Source: a virus
Lineage: Duplodnaviria > Caudoviricetes
IMG/VR virus record: IMGVR_UViG_3300036821_000215
Span: 1 to 34,781 of that record
Strand: one strand, 5' to 3'
Length of the DNA: 34,781 nucleotides
Position 1 is the stretch's first letter. The number at the start of each line of letters is the position of its first letter. Positions 1 to 33,399 of the stretch are shown piece after piece. A model generated the notes under the pieces. That model was not told the origin of the DNA, did no database searches, and worked only from the letters and a program-made list of their open reading frames with translations. The position numbers and the translations under genes are program-made.

Positions 1-867
1 ATGCAAAACATACTACATAATATTAAAACCAGCCTTCAAAACTTCTGTCTTATAGTTAAAAACATGAAATATGCCATTAATACTTTTGGTATATACCTTA
101 TTGGTATAGTTATATTTTCTATATTCTTTAACGAATCAAAGTTTGGCATATACAACATGGATTTTTGGCATGATTTCTTGATAAATGCCAATGCATCCAT
201 TCTTGATTTTCTCGTCATCGGCGTAGTCTTATATTATTTTGAAGCATCGAAACAAAATAAAGAATCAATTGGTGAATTATTGGAGGATTTGCAAAACTAC
301 TCCATACACTCATCTATTGAAATGAATATAAAAAAAATGAAAATAATAAGAAAGCTGAACTCTAAAAATGTAAAAAAGATAAACTCACTACGAATGAAGA
401 TGGACCATATAACAATTAAAAGAATTCATTTTACTGATTCAGAGCTTTCGGGACTTGACCTAACTAGCTCTCGCTTAGAGGAAGCTACCTTTACAGGATG
501 TAACATTCAAGCATTGATACTAAATAATGCAACATTGAAGAATGTTGTCTTTACTGATTGTAAAATCAGAAACATGAAGTGTATTAAAGCTAAATTATCA
601 AATGTAAAATTTATTAAGTGTAAGTTAGAAGGCTCAGATTTTAGTGAATCTTCATTAATAGCTTGCATGCTCAAAGGTTCTGATCTTAATAATGTGAACT
701 ATTTAAAGACTGACCTAAGAAATGGCAACATTAAAGATTGCACAAATATCAATATTATAAAACTAACTGAAGCAAAAAATTTGAATTATGTTGTATGTAC
801 AGAAGAGCAAAGAAGGGGGATTAAGCAAATCAAAGAAAGTGTGAAATTTACGGAGTTGGGGAATTGA
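1..867 (+). CDS. Pentapeptide-repeat protein with N-terminal transmembrane segments
   Basis: Two hydrophobic stretches (FGIYLIGIVIFSIFF; ILDFLVIGVVLYYF), then about 20 tandem pentapeptides (SELSG LDLTS SRLEE ATFTG CNIQA LILNN ATLKN VVFTD...). Very AT-rich; exact start uncertain. Confidence 0.85.
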   Translation: MQNILHNIKTSLQNFCLIVKNMKYAINTFGIYLIGIVIFSIFFNESKFGIYNMDFWHDFLINANASILDFLVIGVVLYYFEASKQNKESIGELLEDLQNYSIHSSIEMNIKKMKIIRKLNSKNVKKINSLRMKMDHITIKRIHFTDSELSGLDLTSSRLEEATFTGCNIQALILNNATLKNVVFTDCKIRNMKCIKAKLSNVKFIKCKLEGSDFSESSLIACMLKGSDLNNVNYLKTDLRNGNIKDCTNINIIKLTEAKNLNYVVCTEEQRRGIKQIKESVKFTELGN

Positions 868-13669: not shown

Positions 13670-14383
13670 TTATTTCTTTGGTTTCTTTGGTCTCGGTGTT
13701 TTTTTAGGGAGTAGCGCCGCAATATGAGAAATATTATCGCCCTTCACGACCGTTCGAAGAACAAAACTTTCGATAACATCCAAGAGTGTTCTGAATTCAG
13801 TAGCATTCGGAGACCAAGCCCTATGCGCGGCAGAGTTGCCAGCATCTGTAACGATTAGAAGCTGCTCTCGCTCTGTATCGCCAATAAACCCACCAGTACG
13901 AAGCTCATCAACTTTTTCATTTAAAGGCAAACCAGGATGAATGCTTAATACCTCGGTCGTTCTGTCAAAAATAGTTCTAAGACCTATGGAAGCCAAAATA
14001 AATGATTTACTTTGATAAGCAGAATACATTTCATTCATTATTTCATATAATTGATAATCCCTAGCTCTGATATCATTGAGCCAATCAGGCCGAATCTCTT
14101 CCTCTTCTTGCGTAGGGTAGGTAATGACAGAGTAATGGAAGTTAATTGTCTCCTGCCCACTCCAATCTATACCGTGTGAATACTCCTCGCTGTTATGGGA
14201 TTTAATCTGTGTAAATATAGCATCGCAGCCCATGCACTCTAAAAGTTGATATTCACTTTCTGCCCAGAAGACGTCATTCACCTCTTCTTGAGTCCATTGT
14301 CTTGTTTTCTCGCCAAGAATAGAACAATTTTTTTGACCACCGCACTGTGGACACTGTGCTTTTGTTTTTTTTAACACTGACAT
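13670..14383 (-). CDS. Moron: N-terminal Zn-ribbon plus DUF4145 (HEPN-like) domain protein
   Basis: CPQC...CMGC cysteine pairs; ASIGLRTIFD...LNEKVDEL...GNSAAH pattern typical of DUF4145; AT-rich; in the P2 orf30 slot between S and V. Confidence 0.75.
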   Translation of the reverse strand: MSVLKKTKAQCPQCGGQKNCSILGEKTRQWTQEEVNDVFWAESEYQLLECMGCDAIFTQIKSHNSEEYSHGIDWSGQETINFHYSVITYPTQEEEEIRPDWLNDIRARDYQLYEIMNEMYSAYQSKSFILASIGLRTIFDRTTEVLSIHPGLPLNEKVDELRTGGFIGDTEREQLLIVTDAGNSAAHRAWSPNATEFRTLLDVIESFVLRTVVKGDNISHIAALLPKKTPRPKKPKK

Positions 14384-23380: not shown

Positions 23381-25261
23381 TTAAATACCTAAAAGACGGA
23401 TATTATTTCCCTGATCATTTGCTTTTGCCCAATCCGTCAACTCCGCAAGGATTTGAGAAATAAACTCATCGTCTGGATCATGCCCTATCGGATCGAATTG
23501 ACGCCCATCAAATAAACTTGATATGAGTCCTTGCACTCTTTCTTTCAATTTTTCATCAGATGAGATACGTTTAAAAGCTGCATAAGGTTTATCTTTTCCA
23601 AGTTCCTCCCCTCCAAGAAAACGTTCAAAATCAGGAATGCTCCAGCGATGAAAAACTGTGTGGCCGTTTTCTCTGCATTTTATGATCTCGTTACGAATCG
23701 TTGTATTTATCGTCCACATTCCATTTCCAGAACCGTCTTTTCGGTATGGCCAATCAATATCATGGACAATTCCAAAGTCGGTCTTGAAATGACGTAACAT
23801 TTTAATTAATGGTACAAGAACCGCTTTGCCGCGAGCACGAATAATACTTACCTTGCCAGTCATTTCATGTTGTGTTTTTACAATTGCAGATATAAAGGCT
23901 GCATGTTCAGTATCACCCTCTACGACAATCGGATAGCTTCCAAAGAAGACTTCTGCAAAACCTATATCAGTAAGTTGTAAAGCCTGTAAGTTATCTTTTT
24001 CCTCATCAGAAAAATTTGCTTCATCAGCGATATATAACCGTGGTGAAAGTGCTTTACCATCAGTTGACCTCTGCATACGGGCAATTGTCGTGTGATCCTC
24101 GAGAGGATTGATAAAGTAAGGTGAGTGTGTAGTTAACAATACTTGCCAATCAGGATGTTTTCCAAGAGCATAAAGGTGTGATTGCGCGGCTCTAGCGGCC
24201 ATTGGGTGCAGTGCATTTTCTGGCTCATCCATCAAAAGAATATATCCGGGTAATGCAGGATCTTCTGCATCTTCAGGTACCGGGTCACCATTTTCCATAG
24301 CATCAATTTGCTGATTAAGTAATTTTACTTCTTCACTGTCGACTCCTTTTTTAGATTCCTTCTTCAATTGATCTTTCAAGGTTTTAAGAAGAGCTTCGCG
24401 TTTTTCAGTTTGACGACTAATCTCATTGTGAACTTGCAACATCGCCCAAAACAATGCCCGCCTTGCTCCCGTTCCTTGTTGACCGATCCGAGATTGACCG
24501 GCAGCCTCCTCAATCAACAATCCGGAACCTTGTTTTAAAAGATTTTCGATTTTCAGTTCGGGAGGAGTCATTTCAACATGAAGTTGTACGCCTAATCCTG
24601 GGAAAATACTTTGAAATCCAGTTTGTATCTGCTGAGAAATACTAGATAACCTTTTCTGGTGTGGTTCAGCTAAGGCATTTACTGTAGCTGCCAAGGCAGA
24701 TTTATCTTTAGATATTTGTGAATTCTTATCACTCTCGAGTGTTTTGAGTTCTTTTACCAGCGGGCTCAAAGCAAGAGTAAGCAATATATCTTCTGAAGTT
24801 ACAGCGTCATCAAGAGATTTGATGCGCATAGGTCTTGGTAGCCGAGATTTAAAAACATTATCAGCTCCTCCAGCCTTACCATCAGCAGCCCAATCATCTA
24901 ATTGTGGGTCCCATGTTTTTCTTACAGGTTTTCCTAATTCATCCCATGTCCATAAACTTCTAACTATTCTTTTTTCATCTTCAATAATTTTCCATTTTTC
25001 ATCCACATTTCCCATTCCCTCAGGAATATGAACATCGAGGATTACCTCTGATGGCTGTTCCGCAGTGGCCCAATTACATCTATCATTGGTAATATTGAAG
25101 GAACTTGGGTTAAATGCTAGCTCATAAGCCCTGAGTATTGTTGTCTTTCCCGAATTGTTAGGTCCAACAAGGCAAAGGATATCATCAAGCTTAACCTGAA
25201 CCCCTTCCGGTCCGATGCATCCTATATTCTTAACAAAGATATTTAGTAATTTTGATCTCAT
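23381..25261 (-). CDS. old: OLD-family ATP-dependent nuclease (ABC ATPase + TOPRIM), probable anti-phage gene
   Basis: Walker A GPNNSGKT, signature-like QGTG, Walker B/D-loop LLMDEPENALHP, switch TTHSP, TOPRIM VVEGDTE and HDID, C-terminal DFE. Confidence 0.9.
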   Translation of the reverse strand: MRSKLLNIFVKNIGCIGPEGVQVKLDDILCLVGPNNSGKTTILRAYELAFNPSSFNITNDRCNWATAEQPSEVILDVHIPEGMGNVDEKWKIIEDEKRIVRSLWTWDELGKPVRKTWDPQLDDWAADGKAGGADNVFKSRLPRPMRIKSLDDAVTSEDILLTLALSPLVKELKTLESDKNSQISKDKSALAATVNALAEPHQKRLSSISQQIQTGFQSIFPGLGVQLHVEMTPPELKIENLLKQGSGLLIEEAAGQSRIGQQGTGARRALFWAMLQVHNEISRQTEKREALLKTLKDQLKKESKKGVDSEEVKLLNQQIDAMENGDPVPEDAEDPALPGYILLMDEPENALHPMAARAAQSHLYALGKHPDWQVLLTTHSPYFINPLEDHTTIARMQRSTDGKALSPRLYIADEANFSDEEKDNLQALQLTDIGFAEVFFGSYPIVVEGDTEHAAFISAIVKTQHEMTGKVSIIRARGKAVLVPLIKMLRHFKTDFGIVHDIDWPYRKDGSGNGMWTINTTIRNEIIKCRENGHTVFHRWSIPDFERFLGGEELGKDKPYAAFKRISSDEKLKERVQGLISSLFDGRQFDPIGHDPDDEFISQILAELTDWAKANDQGNNIRLLGI

Positions 25262-25623
25262 GCCTACTTCCTTTTGAAGTTAAACAACCGAATATGGACA
25301 TAGAAAATCAATTAATTTTATATACTCAATTAGAGGTAAATAGCTACTTCTTTTACTGTTAGATGTGACTAACCTCGAATGCCCAAAGTATTCTCTGAAC
25401 ACGCCCACCTTGGGCATAAAGCTGGCTGCCAGATTATTAAGTATTGGACGGAGTCGAAAATGTGGCAGATCTGGTCAGACACTAAAACATCTAAACATAA
25501 CTCTATGAGCGCCACGACAGGGCGCGAACTAGCAAAACCACCTGAGGCCTAACCGAGCCAATAAAACATACCCACGGCGCGCGCACAAGCCCGTATAAAT
25601 ACAAAAAAGTGGGTTTGCGCGCA

Positions 25624-25642
25624 ATGCTATCCCCGCCACGCC
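25624..25642 (-). other. cos cohesive end (19 nt)
   Basis: Minus strand GGCGTGGCGGGGATAGCAT, one mismatch from the phage 186 cohesive end as I recall it (GGCGTGGCGGGGAAAGCAT); lies between Q and A as expected. Confidence 0.9.
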
Positions 25643-25964
25643 TACCCGCTTTACATGTCGATTGTAATGCAGCTTTTTAAAATCATTTTATAGTGGTCTG
25701 CACTGGTGGGAAGTTCTGATTGCCGTTCCAAAAAAAAATGCAAAGTCATGCAACAAGAATGCAAATCTCTATGCGTACAGCAAAGGCTTCATCAGAGATG
25801 TGCATGCTAATCTTGAGTGGGACTAACATTCTCCTACTTCATGAAAATTATCAACTTGCAATCGTATTTCAAAGAATTAGATCATAATAATATTTTATGT
25901 TTGGCATTGACGGGAAATAAAAAATAATTTAAAAAAACTTATCAAACTAGTGGGGAAAGATAAA

Positions 25965-27422
25965 ATGACGGATCAGGTTGATGCTATTTTATTCGATTTA
26001 GACAACACACTCATAAACACTCAAGCCCTAAAGAACTATAGAGAAAATAGTTTGCGAGGCGATTTTACACAAGGACTTCTAGATTTAACAAAGATCTATC
26101 CAAAGACAAGAAGCATTCTGGACAGTCTCGCGCAAAGGAACATTCCATTAGGGGTAGTCACTAACTCTCCAAAAAGATACGCACTAAAACTGTTAGAACA
26201 CTATGATCTGACTAATTATTTTAAAGTTATAATTACCTATGATGACGTTAAAAATGGCGGAGCAAAACCCTCTCCTATAGGTATTAATCTAGCATTAGCT
26301 CAACTGGGGCTAAGCTCTAAAAACAATATTCTTTTTATTGGTGATGAAGAAAATGATGTAAATGCTTCATATGCTGCAGGAGTCAAACCTATTGCCCCAG
26401 CTTGGGCATCAAAGGAATTCATTGGGCAAGTACCTGCTGCGATGTTAAGCACCAGTCTGCTACTTAGTGAAATACAAAAATTTAGTAATATAAACCTCAT
26501 AGCTGACAGATGTGCAAATGAAAACAGTTTTGAAATAGAGAAGAAGCAACTTTATTTCATACCCATGACAATTGACGGGCAAATTGGTGCTATTAAAAAA
26601 GATGATATCGACATCATATGCTTAGGAAGGTATTTCAGCCAAGGAAGTGAGTTAACCGCTAGAATACATGACATGCATCCACTGTCTAAAGAAATTTACA
26701 AGAAAGAGTTATCGAACACATATGTAATCCCCGAGTACTGGGTTAGACTATTGAATCATTTTGTAGAAAAAACCCCAGCATATATTTTTAATAACACTAG
26801 CGATTTTAATATTGTTACAGTTATACCATCAAAGAAATCTAAAAACCCTCGCCTTGAAAATATGCTAAATAGGATTTCGAGGATATCAAAATCCACAGCA
26901 AAATTCATTCCTGATCTTTTCGAATTTCAAGAAAATGCGAAGAGTTTAAAAACTTTAGGTAGAAAGGAAAATAGGCAGCATGAGATAGGCCAGAACCTTC
27001 GAATTAAAGATAAATACTCTACATTGATTGGCAATGCCAAAATACTTATTATTGACGATGTTGTGACAACTGGCGCAACCTTTGAGGGGGCATTTAATCT
27101 ACTAAGTAGCTATCGCCCTGAACGTATTTTAGGGATTTGTTTAGCTAAAACCGTGAGTGTTTCGGCAGAGTTAAAATTTTGCCCGGATTGCGGAAGACGA
27201 ATGAAATTACGCACGAATCACAAAGACGACACTCACTTCTGGGGGTGTACCGGATTTCATGAAACCCCTCAATGTAAACACACAGAGAACATGAGGATTA
27301 AAGAATGTCCATCTTGTGGTGGAAACATGTACCAAAAGAGAAACAAGAAGGGAGAACTTTTCCTGACATGTGAAGAGTACTATACTGTGAGAAATTGTCG
27401 ATATACAGAGGATATCTTGTGA
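25965..27422 (+). CDS. shosT: ShosT-like toxin: HAD hydrolase + phosphoribosyltransferase + two topoisomerase-type Zn ribbons
   Basis: HAD motifs FDLDNTL, VVTNS, KPSP, GDEEND; PRPP-binding loop IIDDVVTTGAT; C-terminal CPDC..WGC..C and CPSC..C..C; paired with DprA. Confidence 0.85.
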   Translation: MTDQVDAILFDLDNTLINTQALKNYRENSLRGDFTQGLLDLTKIYPKTRSILDSLAQRNIPLGVVTNSPKRYALKLLEHYDLTNYFKVIITYDDVKNGGAKPSPIGINLALAQLGLSSKNNILFIGDEENDVNASYAAGVKPIAPAWASKEFIGQVPAAMLSTSLLLSEIQKFSNINLIADRCANENSFEIEKKQLYFIPMTIDGQIGAIKKDDIDIICLGRYFSQGSELTARIHDMHPLSKEIYKKELSNTYVIPEYWVRLLNHFVEKTPAYIFNNTSDFNIVTVIPSKKSKNPRLENMLNRISRISKSTAKFIPDLFEFQENAKSLKTLGRKENRQHEIGQNLRIKDKYSTLIGNAKILIIDDVVTTGATFEGAFNLLSSYRPERILGICLAKTVSVSAELKFCPDCGRRMKLRTNHKDDTHFWGCTGFHETPQCKHTENMRIKECPSCGGNMYQKRNKKGELFLTCEEYYTVRNCRYTEDIL

Positions 27423-28405
27423 GTTTTGTCTCTATAAACACAAAAAAGCTTTTAGCAATTAGCCAATTAAAAGGTGTCGGAGAAAAGTCACTTTCTTCTT
27501 TGGCTAATCTAGAACACTTTGATGATATGAGTATTAGTGACATTACAGAGAAGTCCTTAAACAAAAAATATTCAGCAAATGAAATCGATTCAGCGGTTTC
27601 TTTTGCTGAAGATCAGATTCATAAATCTGACACACAGAAACACAGAATAATCTCTTTTTTTGACAAGGAATATCCTCATTCTCTGAGACTCATAGAAACC
27701 CCGTCGCCGATACTTTTCTGTGCAGGTAATTTAGAAGCGCTTAACGAAAAATGCATTACTGTAATTGGTACTCGCGAACCAACTGGACACGGGGAGATCA
27801 TCGCAAAAAACCTTACAAAATGGTTTTCTGAAAATGGTTGGAATATAGTCAGCGGTTTAGCAATTGGTGTTGACTCGCTTGCACATCAGGCCTGTATCGA
27901 TGTGCAAGGAAAAACAATTGCTGTATTAGCTCACGGCCTGGAAACTATTTACCCTAAAAGTAATAGAAAGCTTGCTGAGGATATTTTATCTCAAAATGGT
28001 ACGCTCGTTAGTGAATACCACTATGATTCTTTCATAGCAAGATCTAACTTTGTAAAAAGAGATGCCGTACAAGCTGCGCTAGCGTCTGCTGTTTTTCTCG
28101 TTCAAAGTGGTGTACCCGGCGGTAGCTTGCACGCATCAAAAGCTGCTTTGGATTTAAACAGACCTTTAATCGTCGTTGGCCAGTCAAAAACAGATTTGAT
28201 TAATAATGAATCCAAATGCAAAGCTAATATATTATTGTCTGGTAACAATCTAAATGAGATAAAAAAAGCTTTAAAAATAAACTCGTTCGACAAAAACCTA
28301 ATAATAGCAATGCCGAATAAATCATACTATAAAAAAGTAGATGATGTTTTACAAAATTACCTTTTTACTGTTAAAGAAACCCCTACTGAAGGGTTTGGGT
28401 TTTGA
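27419..28405 (+). CDS. shosA: ShosA-like DprA/Smf-family antitoxin
   Basis: LKGVG, YPHSLRLIETPSPILF, VIGTR, IVSGLAIGVDSLAH, LVSEY, FVKRD, SGVPGGSL; GTG start overlaps the upstream TGA (GTGA). Confidence 0.88.
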   Translation: MSFVSINTKKLLAISQLKGVGEKSLSSLANLEHFDDMSISDITEKSLNKKYSANEIDSAVSFAEDQIHKSDTQKHRIISFFDKEYPHSLRLIETPSPILFCAGNLEALNEKCITVIGTREPTGHGEIIAKNLTKWFSENGWNIVSGLAIGVDSLAHQACIDVQGKTIAVLAHGLETIYPKSNRKLAEDILSQNGTLVSEYHYDSFIARSNFVKRDAVQAALASAVFLVQSGVPGGSLHASKAALDLNRPLIVVGQSKTDLINNESKCKANILLSGNNLNEIKKALKINSFDKNLIIAMPNKSYYKKVDDVLQNYLFTVKETPTEGFGF

Positions 28406-30635
28406 AATCTATAATAGGATAAGATATTTCCTTCCCATTAATTAGCATCGTGGCCCCACGCGCCAGCACATCTAATTGCCAATTTGATGGGTGGATACCT
28501 ATTTTCACCAAATCAAGGAATATCCTTACGAATCTTGTTCGCTCTTCCCTCGTTAGTCTCGAAGAGGGTGCTAGCTTTCGAGATTTTGAAGGGTTATAGC
28601 TTTGCTGTAGATGTTTAACCGTCGGTAATCGTCTCCTTATAGCGTCTCTCAACACCATAACGACGTCTGTGTCGTCCCACCCAATACTCCCCTCTTCAAT
28701 TAACTTCAAGACCGCTGCGGTATACTCCGAAGATATCGGAATTATTAACTGTCCTGATTCTCTCTCAACCTTCCCACAGTTATTGACAGGACTCCGAGGC
28801 GCGCCGGAGGCGCTTATTAAATTCAAAGGATGAACGGCAACTTCAACAGCCTTGGCGACAATGCGCCATTTTGTTGTGCGTGTTTCGTGGATGAGGTCAG
28901 TGCCAAGATGAGGGGCATAAACGCCGATGATTTTCTGGATCTCTTCGTCGTACTCGTTTAACTCATCAATCACTTGGCGGGCAGTTCTTACCGTTTGCTC
29001 ATCGCGTGGGACATTCGCCCCACCCTGCGCAGAAATATATGCGGCGAAATCACCAACGTCTGCCGCTGCTCTTGCAGCTTCGACAAGTTCGTCAAACTCG
29101 CTAGCGATACTCACGCCACGCGGCAATCTGCGCAGCTCGCGATAGGCTCCCATTGTTGGTACACCGATAGATTTAAATTGCGGTATACGCCATGTAGAAG
29201 CCCATGCAGTAACGGCTGCGGCAGTCTCTGACAATGATCGGCCAGTCTCATGGTCTATCTCACCTTCCAGAGCATAACCATCAATATTCTTGGCTATGTA
29301 TTTAGCGATATAGCCTGCCGCTCCGCCTTTATTTAAATGCTTACACTCAAAACGCTGAGCTTGTGCCCCCCGTTCATCACCATCTTCTTGGAGTGCATAG
29401 CGGCGCATGATGTCAACGGCAGGCTGACGGTGAGCTTTATCGCAAAACAGCATCATATGCCAGTGAGGTGTAGCGTCGTGGTGAGGCTCAACTACGCGCA
29501 TTCCGTATACCTTGATGCCGTTATCTTTGAATGCTGTACGCATCTTGCCCCAGATTTTCACCAGATAGCGCTGGCCATCCTTTGGTGAAAACGCCTCTTC
29601 ATCCCACTTATGATTAAAATTAACGCGGCGATCAGTCTTTTTCCCGACCATGCGTGTTGGATGGTATTTTGACGGTGTGGTTATCGTGAGGAACATGCCA
29701 ACATGACCAACTTCTGAGGCATATTTTTCAATTCCTGCAATAGTGCTCATCAACTCCATACGACGGATTTCAGGGTTAGAAATACTCCCCATTACCTTAT
29801 CGATGAGATCTATACGTTCCCCTGTTTCGATGTTTTCTAAATCACAGGATTTCAGATATTCCATGTTTGCTAAGCGGCGCGCCCGAACATCCCTGATAGC
29901 CTGTTTGCTGGCATAGCCAGACTTTTGCAGACTAACCTCGCCAACAGCAATCAGGAGAGATTCGCGCCATTGAGTGCGCTGCGCTTTTAACTGTCGAATC
30001 CACCACTCATCATTTACCAATCGCGCGATGCTGGAGAACGCTGAGCGCATATCCAGTTTGCGTTTACAGTATTTTTGCCAGTGCATTGGAGTGATATTAA
30101 AAACGCGGGCAGCACCGGCAACCTCACCATAAATTTTCTGCTGTGCGCTATCGGTGAATAACTTGGCTTGAACCCCGTTGTGCTGGCTTAGGAGCTGATC
30201 GCTTTGCTCTTCATATTCGGTGAAAAGCCGTGATGAAATTTGCATAGCGAGACGTTTCAGCGCCTTGTCATTCATACCCGCTAGCTGGCGGTAGCTCTCG
30301 GCTTCATCGGTGAATATTTCGTTAGTTCGACCATTTAAAATCAGCTCATATTTAGCCTGTACGACTTCGATACGTGGCCAAATGCGTGGCATAAAAACGT
30401 TGATGAGATAGCGATGAGCAGCCAGTAAACCGCTACTTTCTTTCAGGTATTCATATCGACCCGAGAAAATGCCGCTAAGAAAAAATGGCAGTGCGTGGAT
30501 TTTACGTAAGGCATCTTGCCCCTGCTGGAATTCATCACGGGTAAGAGGTCTTTCTTTTGAGATTGCAGGACGGGGAGCGTTCCAGTAATAACTCCATTCC
30601 TTATCTTCCAACGCAGCGGCTAAATGATCGAGCAT
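28383..30635 (-). CDS. A: Rolling-circle replication initiator gpA (HUH endonuclease)
   Basis: FLTITTPSKYH, EPHHDATPHWH, and the two-tyrosine motif YIAKYIAKNIDG; TAATG overlap with the upstream gene. Confidence 0.97.
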   Translation of the reverse strand: MLDHLAAALEDKEWSYYWNAPRPAISKERPLTRDEFQQGQDALRKIHALPFFLSGIFSGRYEYLKESSGLLAAHRYLINVFMPRIWPRIEVVQAKYELILNGRTNEIFTDEAESYRQLAGMNDKALKRLAMQISSRLFTEYEEQSDQLLSQHNGVQAKLFTDSAQQKIYGEVAGAARVFNITPMHWQKYCKRKLDMRSAFSSIARLVNDEWWIRQLKAQRTQWRESLLIAVGEVSLQKSGYASKQAIRDVRARRLANMEYLKSCDLENIETGERIDLIDKVMGSISNPEIRRMELMSTIAGIEKYASEVGHVGMFLTITTPSKYHPTRMVGKKTDRRVNFNHKWDEEAFSPKDGQRYLVKIWGKMRTAFKDNGIKVYGMRVVEPHHDATPHWHMMLFCDKAHRQPAVDIMRRYALQEDGDERGAQAQRFECKHLNKGGAAGYIAKYIAKNIDGYALEGEIDHETGRSLSETAAAVTAWASTWRIPQFKSIGVPTMGAYRELRRLPRGVSIASEFDELVEAARAAADVGDFAAYISAQGGANVPRDEQTVRTARQVIDELNEYDEEIQKIIGVYAPHLGTDLIHETRTTKWRIVAKAVEVAVHPLNLISASGAPRSPVNNCGKVERESGQLIIPISSEYTAAVLKLIEEGSIGWDDTDVVMVLRDAIRRRLPTVKHLQQSYNPSKSRKLAPSSRLTREERTRFVRIFLDLVKIGIHPSNWQLDVLARGATMLINGKEISYPIIDFKTQTLQ
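28779..28802 (-). other. Replication origin (gpA nick site) inside gene A
   Basis: Minus strand GCGCCTCGGAGTCCTGTCAATAAC matches the P2 ori (nick at CG/GA). Confidence 0.9.
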
Positions 30636-31432
30636 TAACCGCACCACTCATTAAGAAGTTCAAACTGAACTGGAGTGGCACGTCGTCTTTCTAACCACTC
30701 AGATATTGTAGGTGGCGAAACTGCTTCAATAGCGCCTTTAAGAATTGCGCAACGATGACGCTTTACTTGCTCCATTCCATATCCAGCAGCCAAAACATTA
30801 TTTGTAAGCTCTGGATATTTACTAAGGTATTTAGGCACATTACAGGCGAGGTTCGTACTATCAGCACTATGTAGTGGGTAGTTACCCAACACTCGGCCAT
30901 CAAGCATTCTCAGCCCATGTATTTTAGTTGTATAACCCTTACGGAGATAAATCATATCGAATGCATCTAACATTCGTTTGTGCCAGCGGGGTGTTCGAAT
31001 TTGCGCATACTCCCCAGAGGAACCAAAACATACACGTGGCCACTCTTCGCATAGTGAGACTAAACGTTCAAAACTCTCGTGAAGGTGCCAGACTGGAGCT
31101 GCCTTATCTCGGAAAGCTGTTGGCAGTTGTTTTATCAATACATCGTTATCAATCTCCCCACCCTCAACAACATCGGGAATAACAAAAAAAATCATTTTTT
31201 TATTTGAGTAATGAGGTGCTAACCACGTGTAAAAGTCACACCAATTAATTTTAAGCCCACGCTTCCATGCGCTGAAAGCCCCGTTGTCGATTGCAACAGC
31301 ATCAGCAATAGTTAATGACTGCTGTAATTGGTCTGGGCGAGCATATGAAACAAATGCACCGGAGCCAGAAACTGCGATCCGGTGAATCTCTCCAGCATCA
31401 CCCCATATTGGAGTACCATGGAAATGAGACAT
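30635..31432 (-). CDS. TGT/DpdA-like TIM-barrel protein, putative nucleic-acid base-exchange (transglycosylase) enzyme
   Basis: Ordered motifs IDNGAFS (D49), VIPDV (D87), PVWH, VCFGS, IHGL, SADS (D191) parallel the TGT/DpdA DSG, D, GG, HxxG and catalytic-D strands. Confidence 0.65.
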   Translation of the reverse strand: MSHFHGTPIWGDAGEIHRIAVSGSGAFVSYARPDQLQQSLTIADAVAIDNGAFSAWKRGLKINWCDFYTWLAPHYSNKKMIFFVIPDVVEGGEIDNDVLIKQLPTAFRDKAAPVWHLHESFERLVSLCEEWPRVCFGSSGEYAQIRTPRWHKRMLDAFDMIYLRKGYTTKIHGLRMLDGRVLGNYPLHSADSTNLACNVPKYLSKYPELTNNVLAAGYGMEQVKRHRCAILKGAIEAVSPPTISEWLERRRATPVQFELLNEWCG

Positions 31433-31713
31433 TAATTAGATTTCTTTTCTGCTTGTAAAAAATATTTCTGGCATGACTGTGCCACTTGATTTATTACCTT
31501 TGATAAAGCAGCTATTTCATTAACGTTGGAAAGACGAATCTCAAAATGGATAAGACCATTTATTAGTTGTTCAATTTTGGCGTAATATCCAACTACTTCT
31601 AAATATCCCTGCCCTTTCTTATCACCAGAAAGAACAGTTTTCTTTTTGTTGAGAATGAACTGGTAGCAGTCGCTCGTCACAACCCAATTGTCACCTACGG
31701 AAATTCGAATCAT
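31432..31713 (-). CDS. P2 Orf83-like / DUF5405 protein
   Basis: MIRISVGDNWVVTSDCYQFILNKKK...VVGYY; position after the DksA-like gene. Confidence 0.75.
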   Translation of the reverse strand: MIRISVGDNWVVTSDCYQFILNKKKTVLSGDKKGQGYLEVVGYYAKIEQLINGLIHFEIRLSNVNEIAALSKVINQVAQSCQKYFLQAEKKSN

Positions 31714-31715
31714 GT

Positions 31716-31934
31716 TTAGCTCCTGAAATGTTTTTTCTGTTGTTCGGTGATTTCTTGGCATGGCACACAACGCACGACACCGGGAAACGCTGCGCGACGT
31801 GCCGCAGGGATTGGCTGGCCGCAGTCTTCACAGACTGAGGCCGATACCCCATTGCTATGAATACGATGTGCACCTACCTGATGAGTCAAAATTTCGAGAT
31901 TTCTTTCCTGCACGGAATCCATTAAATCTGGCAT
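31716..31934 (-). CDS. TraR/DksA C4 zinc-finger protein (P2 Orf82-like)
   Basis: MPDLMD...CEDCGQPIPAARRAAFPGVVRCVPCQ. Confidence 0.93.
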   Translation of the reverse strand: MPDLMDSVQERNLEILTHQVGAHRIHSNGVSASVCEDCGQPIPAARRAAFPGVVRCVPCQEITEQQKKHFRS

Positions 31935-32176
31935 TACATCACCCCTTTATTTTCTAAACCTTCGTTGTGAAAACGGATGGACTCTTGTCCGAGTAATTCA
32001 AGAATTTCAACCCTGTCTAATTGCTCTTGAATCGCGTGACTAATTAGCGAATCCAGATGCGAGGAAAAGGTGATTGCTGCATCAGCCTTAGCCTGATTTC
32101 GTGCCTGATTTAACATCCAATTCGTTGCTTCGCTGTCTGCTTTATTTCTCATTTCCTGACCAACTGTTAAGCTCAT
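31934..32176 (-). CDS. P2 Orf80-like / DUF2732 protein
   Basis: LNQARNQAKADAAITFSSHLDSL...EILELLGQES; GGAG upstream of ATG 32176. Confidence 0.75.
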   Translation of the reverse strand: MSLTVGQEMRNKADSEATNWMLNQARNQAKADAAITFSSHLDSLISHAIQEQLDRVEILELLGQESIRFHNEGLENKGVM

Positions 32177-32235
32177 ATCTGGCTCCAGACAAAGGGATTC
32201 CCTACGCAATCAAGCGCAGAATTAAAAATGGTTAA

Positions 32236-32736
32236 TTAGTGGAGGTAAGTTTCGGGGCGAACCGACGTTAATACAGTCGGCGCATTTTCGAACAGGCTAA
32301 ATAATTCCCGTAGTGCCCGGAATAAAGCCTCTCTCCATGAGCAGGTTTCGTCATCGATTCGCCAATATGGCTGGCTGAATTCTTCTTCCGTTAATCCTGC
32401 ATGAAAATATAAAGTACGACGTTCGCTAATATTTAAACGTCCGATAAAACATGACTTGGTGATCCTGAAACTACGATACTTTGCAAAAGCAGCCCGGAGC
32501 TCATCAATTGCGCAGACAATACGCTCACGATCGCAATCGTTCATTTCCTGCAATTTCATAACTGAATGCCGTTGTCTTAATTGAGCATGAAAACAGATGG
32601 TCAGACGTTCACGTTCGCTCATCTTGTTATAGAAATCACAAGAGGTTTGCCAGCGAGCTGGCGCAAGGCGCTCACCAACAGCAGCGCGAAGCCCGGCAGG
32701 CTGATTCATTACGATAGCAGCAGTGATTACTGTCAT
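32236..32736 (-). CDS. B: Replication protein B
   Basis: 166 aa; QPAGLR...ERERLTICFHAQLRQRH...LTSVRPETYLH; ATGA overlap with the upstream gene. Confidence 0.9.
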   Translation of the reverse strand: MTVITAAIVMNQPAGLRAAVGERLAPARWQTSCDFYNKMSERERLTICFHAQLRQRHSVMKLQEMNDCDRERIVCAIDELRAAFAKYRSFRITKSCFIGRLNISERRTLYFHAGLTEEEFSQPYWRIDDETCSWREALFRALRELFSLFENAPTVLTSVRPETYLH

Positions 32737-32900
32737 TTCTTCCCCCATGATAAAAACCTTTTTACTGCTACTGCGCGCATAGAACGGCGTGAGCAGATAA
32801 TGATTCCTGTGCGGCCTTTCCCATGTGTAATTGAATTATTCATGGGACGTGCGGTTTGATGATTCCAGAGCAGTGGTGCTAAAGAGATTGGGTTTTGCAT
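32733..32900 (-). CDS. P2 Orf78-like small early protein
   Basis: PISLAPLLWNHQ...ITHGKGRTGIII, 55 aa, between cox and B. Confidence 0.75.
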   Translation of the reverse strand: MQNPISLAPLLWNHQTARPMNNSITHGKGRTGIIICSRRSMRAVAVKRFLSWGKK

Positions 32901-32914
32901 ATTACTGGCCTCTT

Positions 32915-33286
32915 CTATGCTGCGCGGCCGCGTCCACGGCAAGGCTTACTTGCACTAATACGGTCTTTCCATCCGTGCCACTCTGCCGGTGCATCTTCAA
33001 CAAGCTGATCAGCAAACTTGTCCCACTCTTTACGGCTAATCCATAACTCTGCATGTCCTCCGGGCTTTAGTGGATCAGCCATGTAAAAAGCTGGGAGTTT
33101 TCCAGCCTTGGCCATGGCTACAATTGCGGCTGGGGTTTTACCCACGTAAAGCGCAAAGCCTTCCTTTGAAAGTAGGTTGCCGGGCTTTTCCGACAAACTG
33201 ACTGGTTTGCGTTTAACGATGCCCCCGCTTTCCTCCACACGTTCCTCATCATTCGACTGGTCTGATGTTTTAGCTTTCGTATTCAT
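32915..33286 (-). CDS. cox: Cox-family repressor / recombination directionality factor
   Basis: LSKEGFALYVGKT...GKLP...ELWISRKEWD...PAEWHGWKDR; first gene of the early operon. Confidence 0.88.
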   Translation of the reverse strand: MNTKAKTSDQSNDEERVEESGGIVKRKPVSLSEKPGNLLSKEGFALYVGKTPAAIVAMAKAGKLPAFYMADPLKPGGHAELWISRKEWDKFADQLVEDAPAEWHGWKDRISASKPCRGRGRAA

Positions 33287-33370: not shown

Positions 33371-33399
33371 ATAATGGGAGATATGCGATTAAATGTCAA
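33371..33399 (-). promoter_or_regulatory. Early lytic promoter Pe
   Basis: Minus strand TTGACA (33394-33399, overlapping the C start codon), 17 nt, CATTAT (33371-33376), pointing into cox. Confidence 0.8.

What the first reader, a model, noticed from the sequence alone, without database searches (positions are those of the whole stretch)
30635..31432. TGT/DpdA-like base-exchange enzyme coupled to the replication gene, in the slot usually held by a DNA methylase
Seen: a 265-aa ORF with TAATG stop/start overlaps on both sides (orf83-like upstream, gene A downstream), so it should be expressed with the early replication operon. It carries ordered motifs DNGAFS, IPD, PVWH, FGS, HGL and SADS. Known: tRNA-guanine transglycosylases and their DNA-acting DpdA paralogues use a DSG Asp, a second base-binding Asp, an HxxG strand and a late nucleophilic Asp. 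DpdA inserts 7-deazaguanines into phage DNA and blocks restriction. Several P2-like phages carry a Dam-type methylase just upstream of A. Inference: this temperate phage may swap guanines for a host-supplied precursor (preQ0/preQ1), since no folE/queC/queD/queE genes are in the window. That would be a minimal one-gene DNA-modification or anti-restriction system. An RNA substrate or another base is also possible, because DNG replaces DSG, HGLR replaces HxLG, and there is no TGT Zn site.
Basis: partly seen in the sequence, partly recalled or inferred. Interest (0 to 1): 0.85.

Follow-up and report, generated by a model that had tools for sequence, protein, structure and literature searches.

The report
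Lone DpdA gene in P2-like prophage
This prophage carries, just before its replication gene, a member of an already catalogued family of lone phage enzymes that likely swaps a few guanines in phage DNA for a host-made 7-deazaguanine base (likely ADG); the family is known, but what the sparse mark is for is still open.

Summary
The ORF is real (minus strand, 265 aa, TAATG overlaps at both ends) and is predicted to be a TGT-type barrel with its catalytic aspartates intact. It is a new member of the published 'DpdA-only' gamma-proteobacterial phage clade. Its 66-68% relative SEN1 gp38 sits in the same orf83-A slot and was listed as DpdA in 2019. Two relatives' phages were assayed (MED16, 57%; 7-11, 39-42%) and carry only traces of dADG (354 and 50 per million nt); MED16 DNA is still cut by most restriction enzymes tested.

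It does not replace a methylase: the slot is empty in 18 of 21 closest phages, and 20 of 31 P2-like carriers have Dam right beside it. DNG, HGLR and the missing Zn site do not suggest an RNA substrate.

One lead is testable: the valine that limits DpdA to preQ0 is a glycine in most of this clade, which could explain ADG insertion without DpdC. This scan found the family before on other DNA (at least 8 earlier follow-up reports). Ordinary member; its function is open.

The parts
30635..31432 (-). dpdA: singleton phage DpdA (DNA-guanine transglycosylase family), 265 aa; predicted (beta/alpha)8 barrel; D49, F53, D87, H116, G137-S-S-G140, H172-G-L-R175, D191
30585..31567 (-). Exchanged cassette: 3' part of orf83 + dpdA + the first codons of gene A; missing from close relatives, which align at 92-96% and 85-93% on its two sides
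   Evidence: L096, L114, L097, L111 break at 31568 and 30584; L117 is 99.8% identical throughout
31432..31713 (-). orf83-like DUF5405 gene (likely start ATG 31713; longest ORF starts at 31770); its stop overlaps the dpdA start
28383..30635 (-). Replication gene A (rolling-circle nickase); ATG 30635 overlaps the dpdA stop (longest ORF starts at GTG 30647)
31716..33286 (-). Upstream early genes: cox, phrog_235 gene, DUF2732, DksA/TraR zinc finger
33371..33399 (-). Sigma-70-like site TTGACA-17-CATTAT upstream of cox; candidate early promoter for the operon that includes dpdA
   Evidence: best-scoring site, 10 of 12; the number of sites in the region, 6, is not above shuffles, 9.4 +/- 3.0

Best explanation
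The gene encodes a stand-alone phage DpdA-family protein that likely acts as a DNA-guanine transglycosylase, swapping a few guanines in phage DNA for a host-made 7-deazaguanine and likely leaving dADG at roughly 3-25 sites per genome. Steps: (1) Shown: the gene lies in the early cox-to-A gene run, with stop/start overlaps on both sides. (2) Inferred from P2 biology (recalled): it is expressed in lytic growth and repressed in the lysogen. (3) Predicted: D191 attacks C1' of the target dG while D49 acts as acid/base and D87/H116 read the Watson-Crick edge, as for D256, D95, D130 and H181 of Salmonella DpdA. (4) Inferred: the base comes from the host queuosine pathway, since the prophage has no synthesis genes. 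(5) Inferred: the specificity loop GSSG lacks the valine gate of preQ0-specific DpdAs (GGMV), so the enzyme may take free ADG, the QueC intermediate, directly with no need for DpdC. (6) Least certain: the sparse mark protects a rare motif against one specific host defence, not against restriction enzymes in general.
For: Fold: pLDDT 95.6, eight strands alternating with helices. The top four of 48,161 chains are TGT-family: Cap10 Z16.0, rmsd 3.3 over 229; arcTGT Z15.1, 4.8 over 248; DpdA 7UI4 Z14.0, 4.0 over 225; bacterial TGT Z13.7, 3.9 over 227. Profile match to CAjan DpdA: 98.8%, E 9e-17, pairing D49/D63, H116/H132 and D191/D206. Conservation among non-gap homologue rows: D49 260 of 261, D87 264 of 264, H116 263 of 263, D191 235 of 235. 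Both dADG-carrying phages (MED16, 7-11) fall with this protein in one 26-row clade, SH-aLRT 95, quick tree. dADG 354 vs dPreQ0 3 per 10^6 nt in MED16; dADG 50 vs dPreQ0 <6 in 7-11, while CAjan has 70,628 dPreQ0 and <6 dADG, so spontaneous hydration is an unlikely source. Position 140 is Gly in 222 of 261 rows, where CAjan has Val; the valine-gate rule is from PMC10164549. Relatives are coupled to deazaguanine genes: mini QueF-L in 12 of 85 loci, Vut_1/YhhQ in 3, QueD-like in 3.
Against: In the papers read, no member of this clade was knocked out or assayed as a purified enzyme, so the link from gene to dADG is a correlation in two phages; the host of MED16 is unsequenced and a host Dpd system could have written the mark. 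Hutinet et al. proposed a separate phage oxidase for 7-11. An open pocket would also admit preQ1, yet 7-11 has <6 dPreQ1 per 10^6 nt. No sequence hit to any solved TGT or DpdA, no profile match to E. coli TGT, no Pfam DpdA hit. D87 is offset from the CAjan Asp in the pairwise alignment. The tree is the quick one and carries a long-branch warning. No expression evidence: the one RNA run laid does not cover the gene.
Confidence: 0.68

Rival explanations
1. It is an ordinary preQ0 insertase like CAjan DpdA working at low level, and dADG arises afterwards through a host or phage nitrile hydratase (DpdC-like) or another enzyme.
For: Bacterial DpdA inserts preQ0 and DpdC converts it (PMC10164549); a trace of dPreQ0 (3 per 10^6 nt) is seen in MED16; other branches of the family pair with QueF-L-fold proteins, whose solved relatives act on preQ0; Hutinet et al. 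favoured a phage oxidase for 7-11.
Against: No recurring partner gene next to dpdA in MED16, 7-11, SEN1 or the P2-like loci other than Dam, orf83 and A; the cassette that moved here holds only dpdA; two unrelated phages in different hosts both end at ADG.
Confidence: 0.2
2. The trace dADG in MED16 and 7-11 comes from host Dpd systems, and this clade does something else with a deazaguanine, for example binding an NDG-modified immune protein as Cap10 does (a decoy against type IV CBASS) or acting on RNA.
For: The best structural match is Cap10 (Z16.0; Foldseek E 2.7e-4), which keeps TGT catalytic residues and binds a 7-amido-7-deazaguanine linked to a protein. Modification levels are very low, with no restriction protection in MED16.
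Against: Cap10's lead over arcTGT is under 1 Z unit (a tie) at 10% identity; by sequence the protein is much closer to DNA-acting CAjan DpdA (22% identity, E 9e-17, same PHROG 887); it sits beside DNA methylases in many loci; no PADLOC hit.
Confidence: 0.08
3. The gene is a decayed or neutral passenger with no current activity.
For: Most close relatives of this phage lack it (18 of 21 have an empty slot); low GC3 (0.34 vs 0.46 for gene A and 0.64 for the capsid gene) marks it as foreign.
Against: Intact frame, near-invariant active-site residues, dN/dS 0.05-0.17 in relatives; intact in three other runs; at least two different dpdA lineages entered this slot (L146 at 40% vs L150 and L162 at 65-67%).
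Confidence: 0.04

Closest known systems
Salmonella P2-like phage SEN1 gp38 (YP_009217891; listed as DpdA in Hutinet 2019 Supplementary Data 1) and SW9 gp39
   Same: 66-68% identity over the full length; same slot orf83-dpdA-A in a P2-like phage, no Dam, no precursor genes nearby.
   Different: A separate sub-branch in a phage only about 61% identical to P2 in gene A. No DNA assay for SEN1 in the papers read.
Pantoea phage vB_PagS_MED16 gp38 (DpdA/TGT_1 cluster, PMC8306585)
   Same: 57% identity; same DNGAFS, IPD, WH, FGSSG, HGLR and DST motifs; DpdA only; DNA carries 354 dADG per 10^6 nt.
   Different: Lytic siphovirus with its own adenine methylase six genes upstream; the link to dADG was not tested genetically in the passages read.
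Salmonella phage 7-11 gp032 (group 3 'DpdA only', PMC6884629)
   Same: 39-42% identity; same catalytic residues; 50 dADG per 10^6 nt.
   Different: Virulent podovirus; specificity loop GCMG instead of GSSG.
Escherichia phage CAjan / 9g DpdA1 (pathway-encoding phages)
   Same: Same PHROG 887; aligned catalytic motifs; no CxCxxC Zn motif.
   Different: CAjan encodes FolE, QueD, QueE and QueC, has a GGMV loop and replaces about 32% of G with preQ0, which blocks some restriction enzymes; the window has no pathway genes and a GSSG loop.
Bacterial DpdABC (S. Montevideo DpdA, PDB 7UI4)
   Same: Fold Z14.0; end product dADG at under 0.1% of G.
   Different: Needs the DpdB ATPase and DpdC, has a Zn site and 413 aa, and is part of a restriction island; here a single 265-aa gene.

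Membership tests
TGT superfamily | (beta/alpha)8 barrel most similar to TGT-family structures | tested here: met
   the top four of 48,161 chains are Cap10, arcTGT, DpdA and bacterial TGT (Z 13.7-16.0); the next barrel, PdxJ, is at 13.6, so the margin over unrelated barrels is small
TGT superfamily | Acid/base Asp on beta3, base-binding Asp after beta4, nucleophile Asp on beta8 | tested here: met
   D49 ends strand E45-49, D87 follows E80-84, D191 lies in E189-192; D49 and D191 align to CAjan D63 and D206; conserved 260/261, 264/264, 235/235. No atom-level superposition was available.
Phage DpdA1 (Hutinet 2019) | Conserved His on beta5 (the His that DpdA2 lacks; H181 in Salmonella DpdA) | tested here: met
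   H116 conserved in 263 of 263 and aligned to CAjan H132; equating it with the paper's 'histidine 196' and with H181 is inference from its barrel position
Gamma-proteobacterial singleton ('DpdA only') clade | Groups with SEN1, MED16 and 7-11 DpdAs | tested here: met
   26-row clade, SH-aLRT 95, quick tree with a long-branch warning; identities 68, 57 and 42%
Gamma-proteobacterial singleton ('DpdA only') clade | No preQ0 or G+ synthesis genes in the phage | tested here: met
   0 of 1 for QueC, PTPS/QueD, FolE, QueF and radical SAM; no tblastn hit for mini-QueF-L, Vut_1 or QueD-like queries
Phage DpdA (any) | Inserts a 7-deazaguanine into DNA | not testable with these tools
   Known only for the DNA of relatives' phages
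preQ0-specific DpdA/arcTGT | GGhsbb specificity loop with the valine gate (PMC10164549) | tested here: not met
   The loop is G137-S-S-G140-E-Y; CAjan has GGMV
tRNA-acting TGT (bacterial) | C-terminal CxCxxC Zn site and sequence similarity to Tgt | tested here: not met
   No CxCxxC in the query; present in E. coli Tgt at 302; hhalign to E. coli Tgt probability 1.6%
Cap10 (type IV CBASS) | Encoded with Cap9/QueC and a CD-NTase | tested here: not met
   No QueC family hit in the provirus; the neighbours are orf83 and gene A; no PADLOC hit

The most novel reading that the evidence does not exclude
This clade is a one-gene ADG insertase: with the valine gate lost it takes the QueC intermediate 7-amido-7-deazaguanine directly and writes it at a rare motif during lytic growth, forging the 'self' mark of bacterial Dpd restriction systems (or of another motif-specific defence), a one-gene anti-Dpd counter-defence carried in the early operons of temperate phages.
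Probability: 0.17. Interest if true: 0.65.

Novelty: new member of a known kind. Interest (0 to 1): 0.22.

Why it matters
As a gene find it matters little: the clade and even this slot were catalogued in 2019, though most records still call these proteins hypothetical. The open questions named by the MED16 authors (how dADG is made without DpdC and what so few marks do) remain. A small single-gene member whose near-isogenic sister phages lack the gene is a clean test case, and the GSSG-versus-GGMV loop gives one precise residue to test.

Tried and rejected
Sequence search of solved structures found nothing relevant (0 hits with the protein; only coiled-coil noise with the profile). Pfam, NCBIfam and PADLOC gave no real hit for the protein. 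The profile comparison with E. coli Tgt was uninformative. 'Methylase slot swap' was rejected; in that survey one locus has a C5 methylase in the slot and two have a PAPS-reductase-like gene. RNA substrate was rejected as the leading reading. Expression could not be judged: the single RNA run laid (X20) covers only 224 nt of gene A. dN/dS for the window's own gene could not be computed because synonymous sites are saturated. The target motif was not inferred: about 33 sites per MED16 genome and 9 per 7-11 genome (my arithmetic from the published rates and record lengths) fit either full modification of a 6-7-bp motif or partial modification of a short one. The host species was not determined; the nearest named phages are 68% identical in the head genes. 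The careful tree did not finish; the quick tree is used. Literature searches found no genetic or biochemical test of a member of this clade; the library lacks most subscription papers.
Full report
Observation. The window is a complete P2-like provirus (head genes 68% identical to P2-type phages; gene A about 61%). The ORF 30635..31432 lies on the minus strand and encodes 265 aa. It sits between a DUF5405/orf83-like gene and replication gene A, with TAATG stop/start overlaps at both ends. Three other runs from three studies hold the whole region in one contig, with no listed change inside the gene (7 of 47 variant rows not shown), so it is not an assembly artefact.

Family. PHROG 887 (queuine tRNA-ribosyltransferase) matches at E 6.1e-79; Pfam, NCBIfam and PADLOC give no real hit. 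There are 1376 homologues in the protein collection and 107 phage records with a match. The closest named ones are the Salmonella P2-like phages SEN1, SI22 and SW9 (65-66% by tblastn), Pantoea phage MED16 (57%) and, further off, HK106, SfI, SPN3UB, BTP1 and 7-11 (35-41%). SEN1 gp38 lies in the same slot, between a 279-bp gene and the replication gene. Hutinet et al. 2019 (PMC6884629; I read parts 1-4 of 7 of the text and searched its supplements) define a group of 76 phages with DpdA but no pathway genes and a gamma-proteobacterial singleton cluster; their Supplementary Data 1 lists SEN1 gp38, 7-11 gp032, HK106, SfI and SPN3UB as DpdA. The MED16 paper (PMC8306585; passages and the Discussion read, supplements not read) names SW9 gp39 and SEN1 gp38 as its closest viral homologues.

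Fold and active site. AlphaFold2 on a 124-sequence alignment gives pLDDT 95.6 and eight strands alternating with helices. VIA-align against 48,161 chains ranks Cap10 (Z16.0), archaeal TGT (15.1), Salmonella DpdA 7UI4 (14.0) and bacterial TGT (13.7) first; the unrelated barrel PdxJ follows at 13.6. Foldseek's top PDB hit is also Cap10, and most of its named viral hits are 'queuine tRNA-ribosyltransferase'. The profile aligns to CAjan DpdA, the phage enzyme shown by knockout to be needed for dPreQ0, at 98.8% probability, pairing DNGAFS with DSGAFS, VWH with CFH, HGL with HAF and ADST with CDSS. Among the 270 homologues aligned, the non-gap counts are D49 260/261, D87 264/264, H116 263/263 and D191 235/235. 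Gedara et al. (PMC10164549; passages and Discussion read) assign D95, F99, D130, H181 and D256 in Salmonella DpdA; D49, F53, D87, H116 and D191 occupy the matching strands, which is my inference from barrel position and not an atom-level superposition. CAjan DpdA also has no CxCxxC motif, so the missing Zn site is normal for a phage DpdA.

Likely product. The DNA of two phages carrying clade members was measured. MED16 has 354 dADG and 3 dPreQ0 per 10^6 nt; 7-11 has 50 dADG and under 6 dPreQ0 or dPreQ1. CAjan, with 70,628 dPreQ0, has under 6 dADG, so simple hydration does not explain it. A quick tree of 49 rows puts the window protein, MED16, 7-11 and SEN1 in one 26-row clade (SH-aLRT 95; long-branch warning). 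Scaled to this genome, those rates mean about 3-25 marks (arithmetic). Gedara et al. state that a valine in the Gly-rich beta6 loop (G206-G207-M208-V209) restricts DpdA to preQ0 and that small residues there open the pocket. CAjan has GGMV; this protein has G137-S-S-G140, with Gly at 140 in 222 of 261 rows and Ala in 14. I infer a wider pocket that could take free ADG, the QueC intermediate. Against this, preQ1 should then fit too but is not seen in 7-11, the QueF-L-linked branches have the same GSSG loop, and neither phage was tested by knockout in the text read, so a host Dpd origin of the mark is not excluded (the MED16 host is unsequenced).

The slot. Picking loci by gene A (the best 80 of 593) gives a view that does not depend on dpdA. 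Of the 22 closest (A 82-98% identical), 21 show the slot: 18 have orf83 directly against A, 2 have an unrelated 75-aa ORF, and 1 (L117, 99.8% identical to the window and so not independent) has dpdA. None of the 80 has Dam in the slot; 4 of 80 have a dpdA homologue, 1 a C5 methylase and 2 a PAPS-reductase-like gene. Picking by dpdA, 31 of 85 loci are P2-like, and 20 of those have Dam immediately upstream (many are near-identical prophages, and the viral scan kept only 80 of 597 hits). So dpdA is an optional insert just before A, beside Dam where Dam exists. In this lineage it came in as a 983-bp exchange (window 31567-30585) with crossovers inside orf83 and at the YxWNAPR start of A. Its GC3 of 0.34 against 0.46 for A fits a foreign origin, and relatives show purifying selection.

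Genomic support for a deazaguanine role. In more distant branches the gene is coupled to an 80-90-aa protein (12 of 85 loci within 250 bp) whose model matches archaeosine synthase QueF-L at Z12.7, rmsd 1.5 over 81 residues, to a Vut_1/YhhQ-type transporter (3 of 85) or to a QueD-like protein (3 of 85). None of these is in the window, nor are QueC, QueD, FolE, QueF, radical-SAM or Dam genes.

Function. Broad anti-restriction is unlikely at this density: MED16 DNA was cut by most enzymes tested and the authors saw no noticeable effect of dADG. The level resembles that of bacterial Dpd, under 0.1% of G (Cui et al. preprint, passages and Discussion read; its supplements were not seen and may list more members of this clade). 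The same base is that system's self mark. This makes mimicry of Dpd, or protection of a rare motif, the most interesting open reading, but nothing here tests it. Cap10-like binding of an NDG-tagged protein (preprint 10.1101/2025.04.06.647259, passages read) is a distant rival.

Verdict. Observation confirmed; interpretation partly right. This is a new member of a known kind, already found several times by this scan in other P2-like prophages. Interest 0.22; 0.65 if the one-gene ADG mimicry reading holds (probability about 0.17).

Noticed in passing
L048, L054, L056, L058, L061, L062, L070, L072, L074, L076, L081, L085 (gene just upstream of the dpdA homologue; e.g. L056:5759-6001): An unnamed 80-90-aa protein (phrog_37496) with invariant C12-P13, H48-E49 and H69-x-G71-V72, folding like QueF-L (Z12.7, rmsd 1.5). 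These dpdA branches are therefore not true singletons. Earlier scan notes report the same pair.
   Followed up: partly
L050, L051, L082 (upstream of dpdA): QueD-like (PTPS) gene whose motif reads SxxIHGH, with Ser where QueD's CxxxHGH has its catalytic Cys; it may do a different reaction.
   Followed up: no
window 23381-28405: The accessory region between the portal gene and gene A holds an Old-family ATPase-TOPRIM gene (23381-25261, minus) and a ShosTA-like pair: HAD-PRTase-zinc-ribbon (25950-27422) and DprA-like (27395-28405). The ShosT-like protein has an extra N-terminal HAD domain.
   Followed up: no
window 30526-31462: No listed differences across the dpdA cassette in three other runs, while the flanks carry 18-28 changes per run: a hint of recent spread of the cassette (7 variant rows not shown).
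   Followed up: no
L136 and L145:2410-3423; L161:2629-3420; L146:2734-3318: The slot before gene A also takes a 337-aa PAPS-reductase-like gene, a C5 cytosine methylase and a second, distant (40%) dpdA lineage: a hotspot for likely DNA-modification genes.
   Followed up: partly
window 1-867 (+) and 13670-14383 (-): Two AT-rich accessory genes: a pentapeptide-repeat protein (weak HalA- and Qnr-like hits far below their cut-offs) and a DUF4145 protein with a zinc-finger start.
   Followed up: no
L037:5208-6001: A P2-like dpdA homologue that appears broken (longest matching ORF 156 aa).
   Followed up: no
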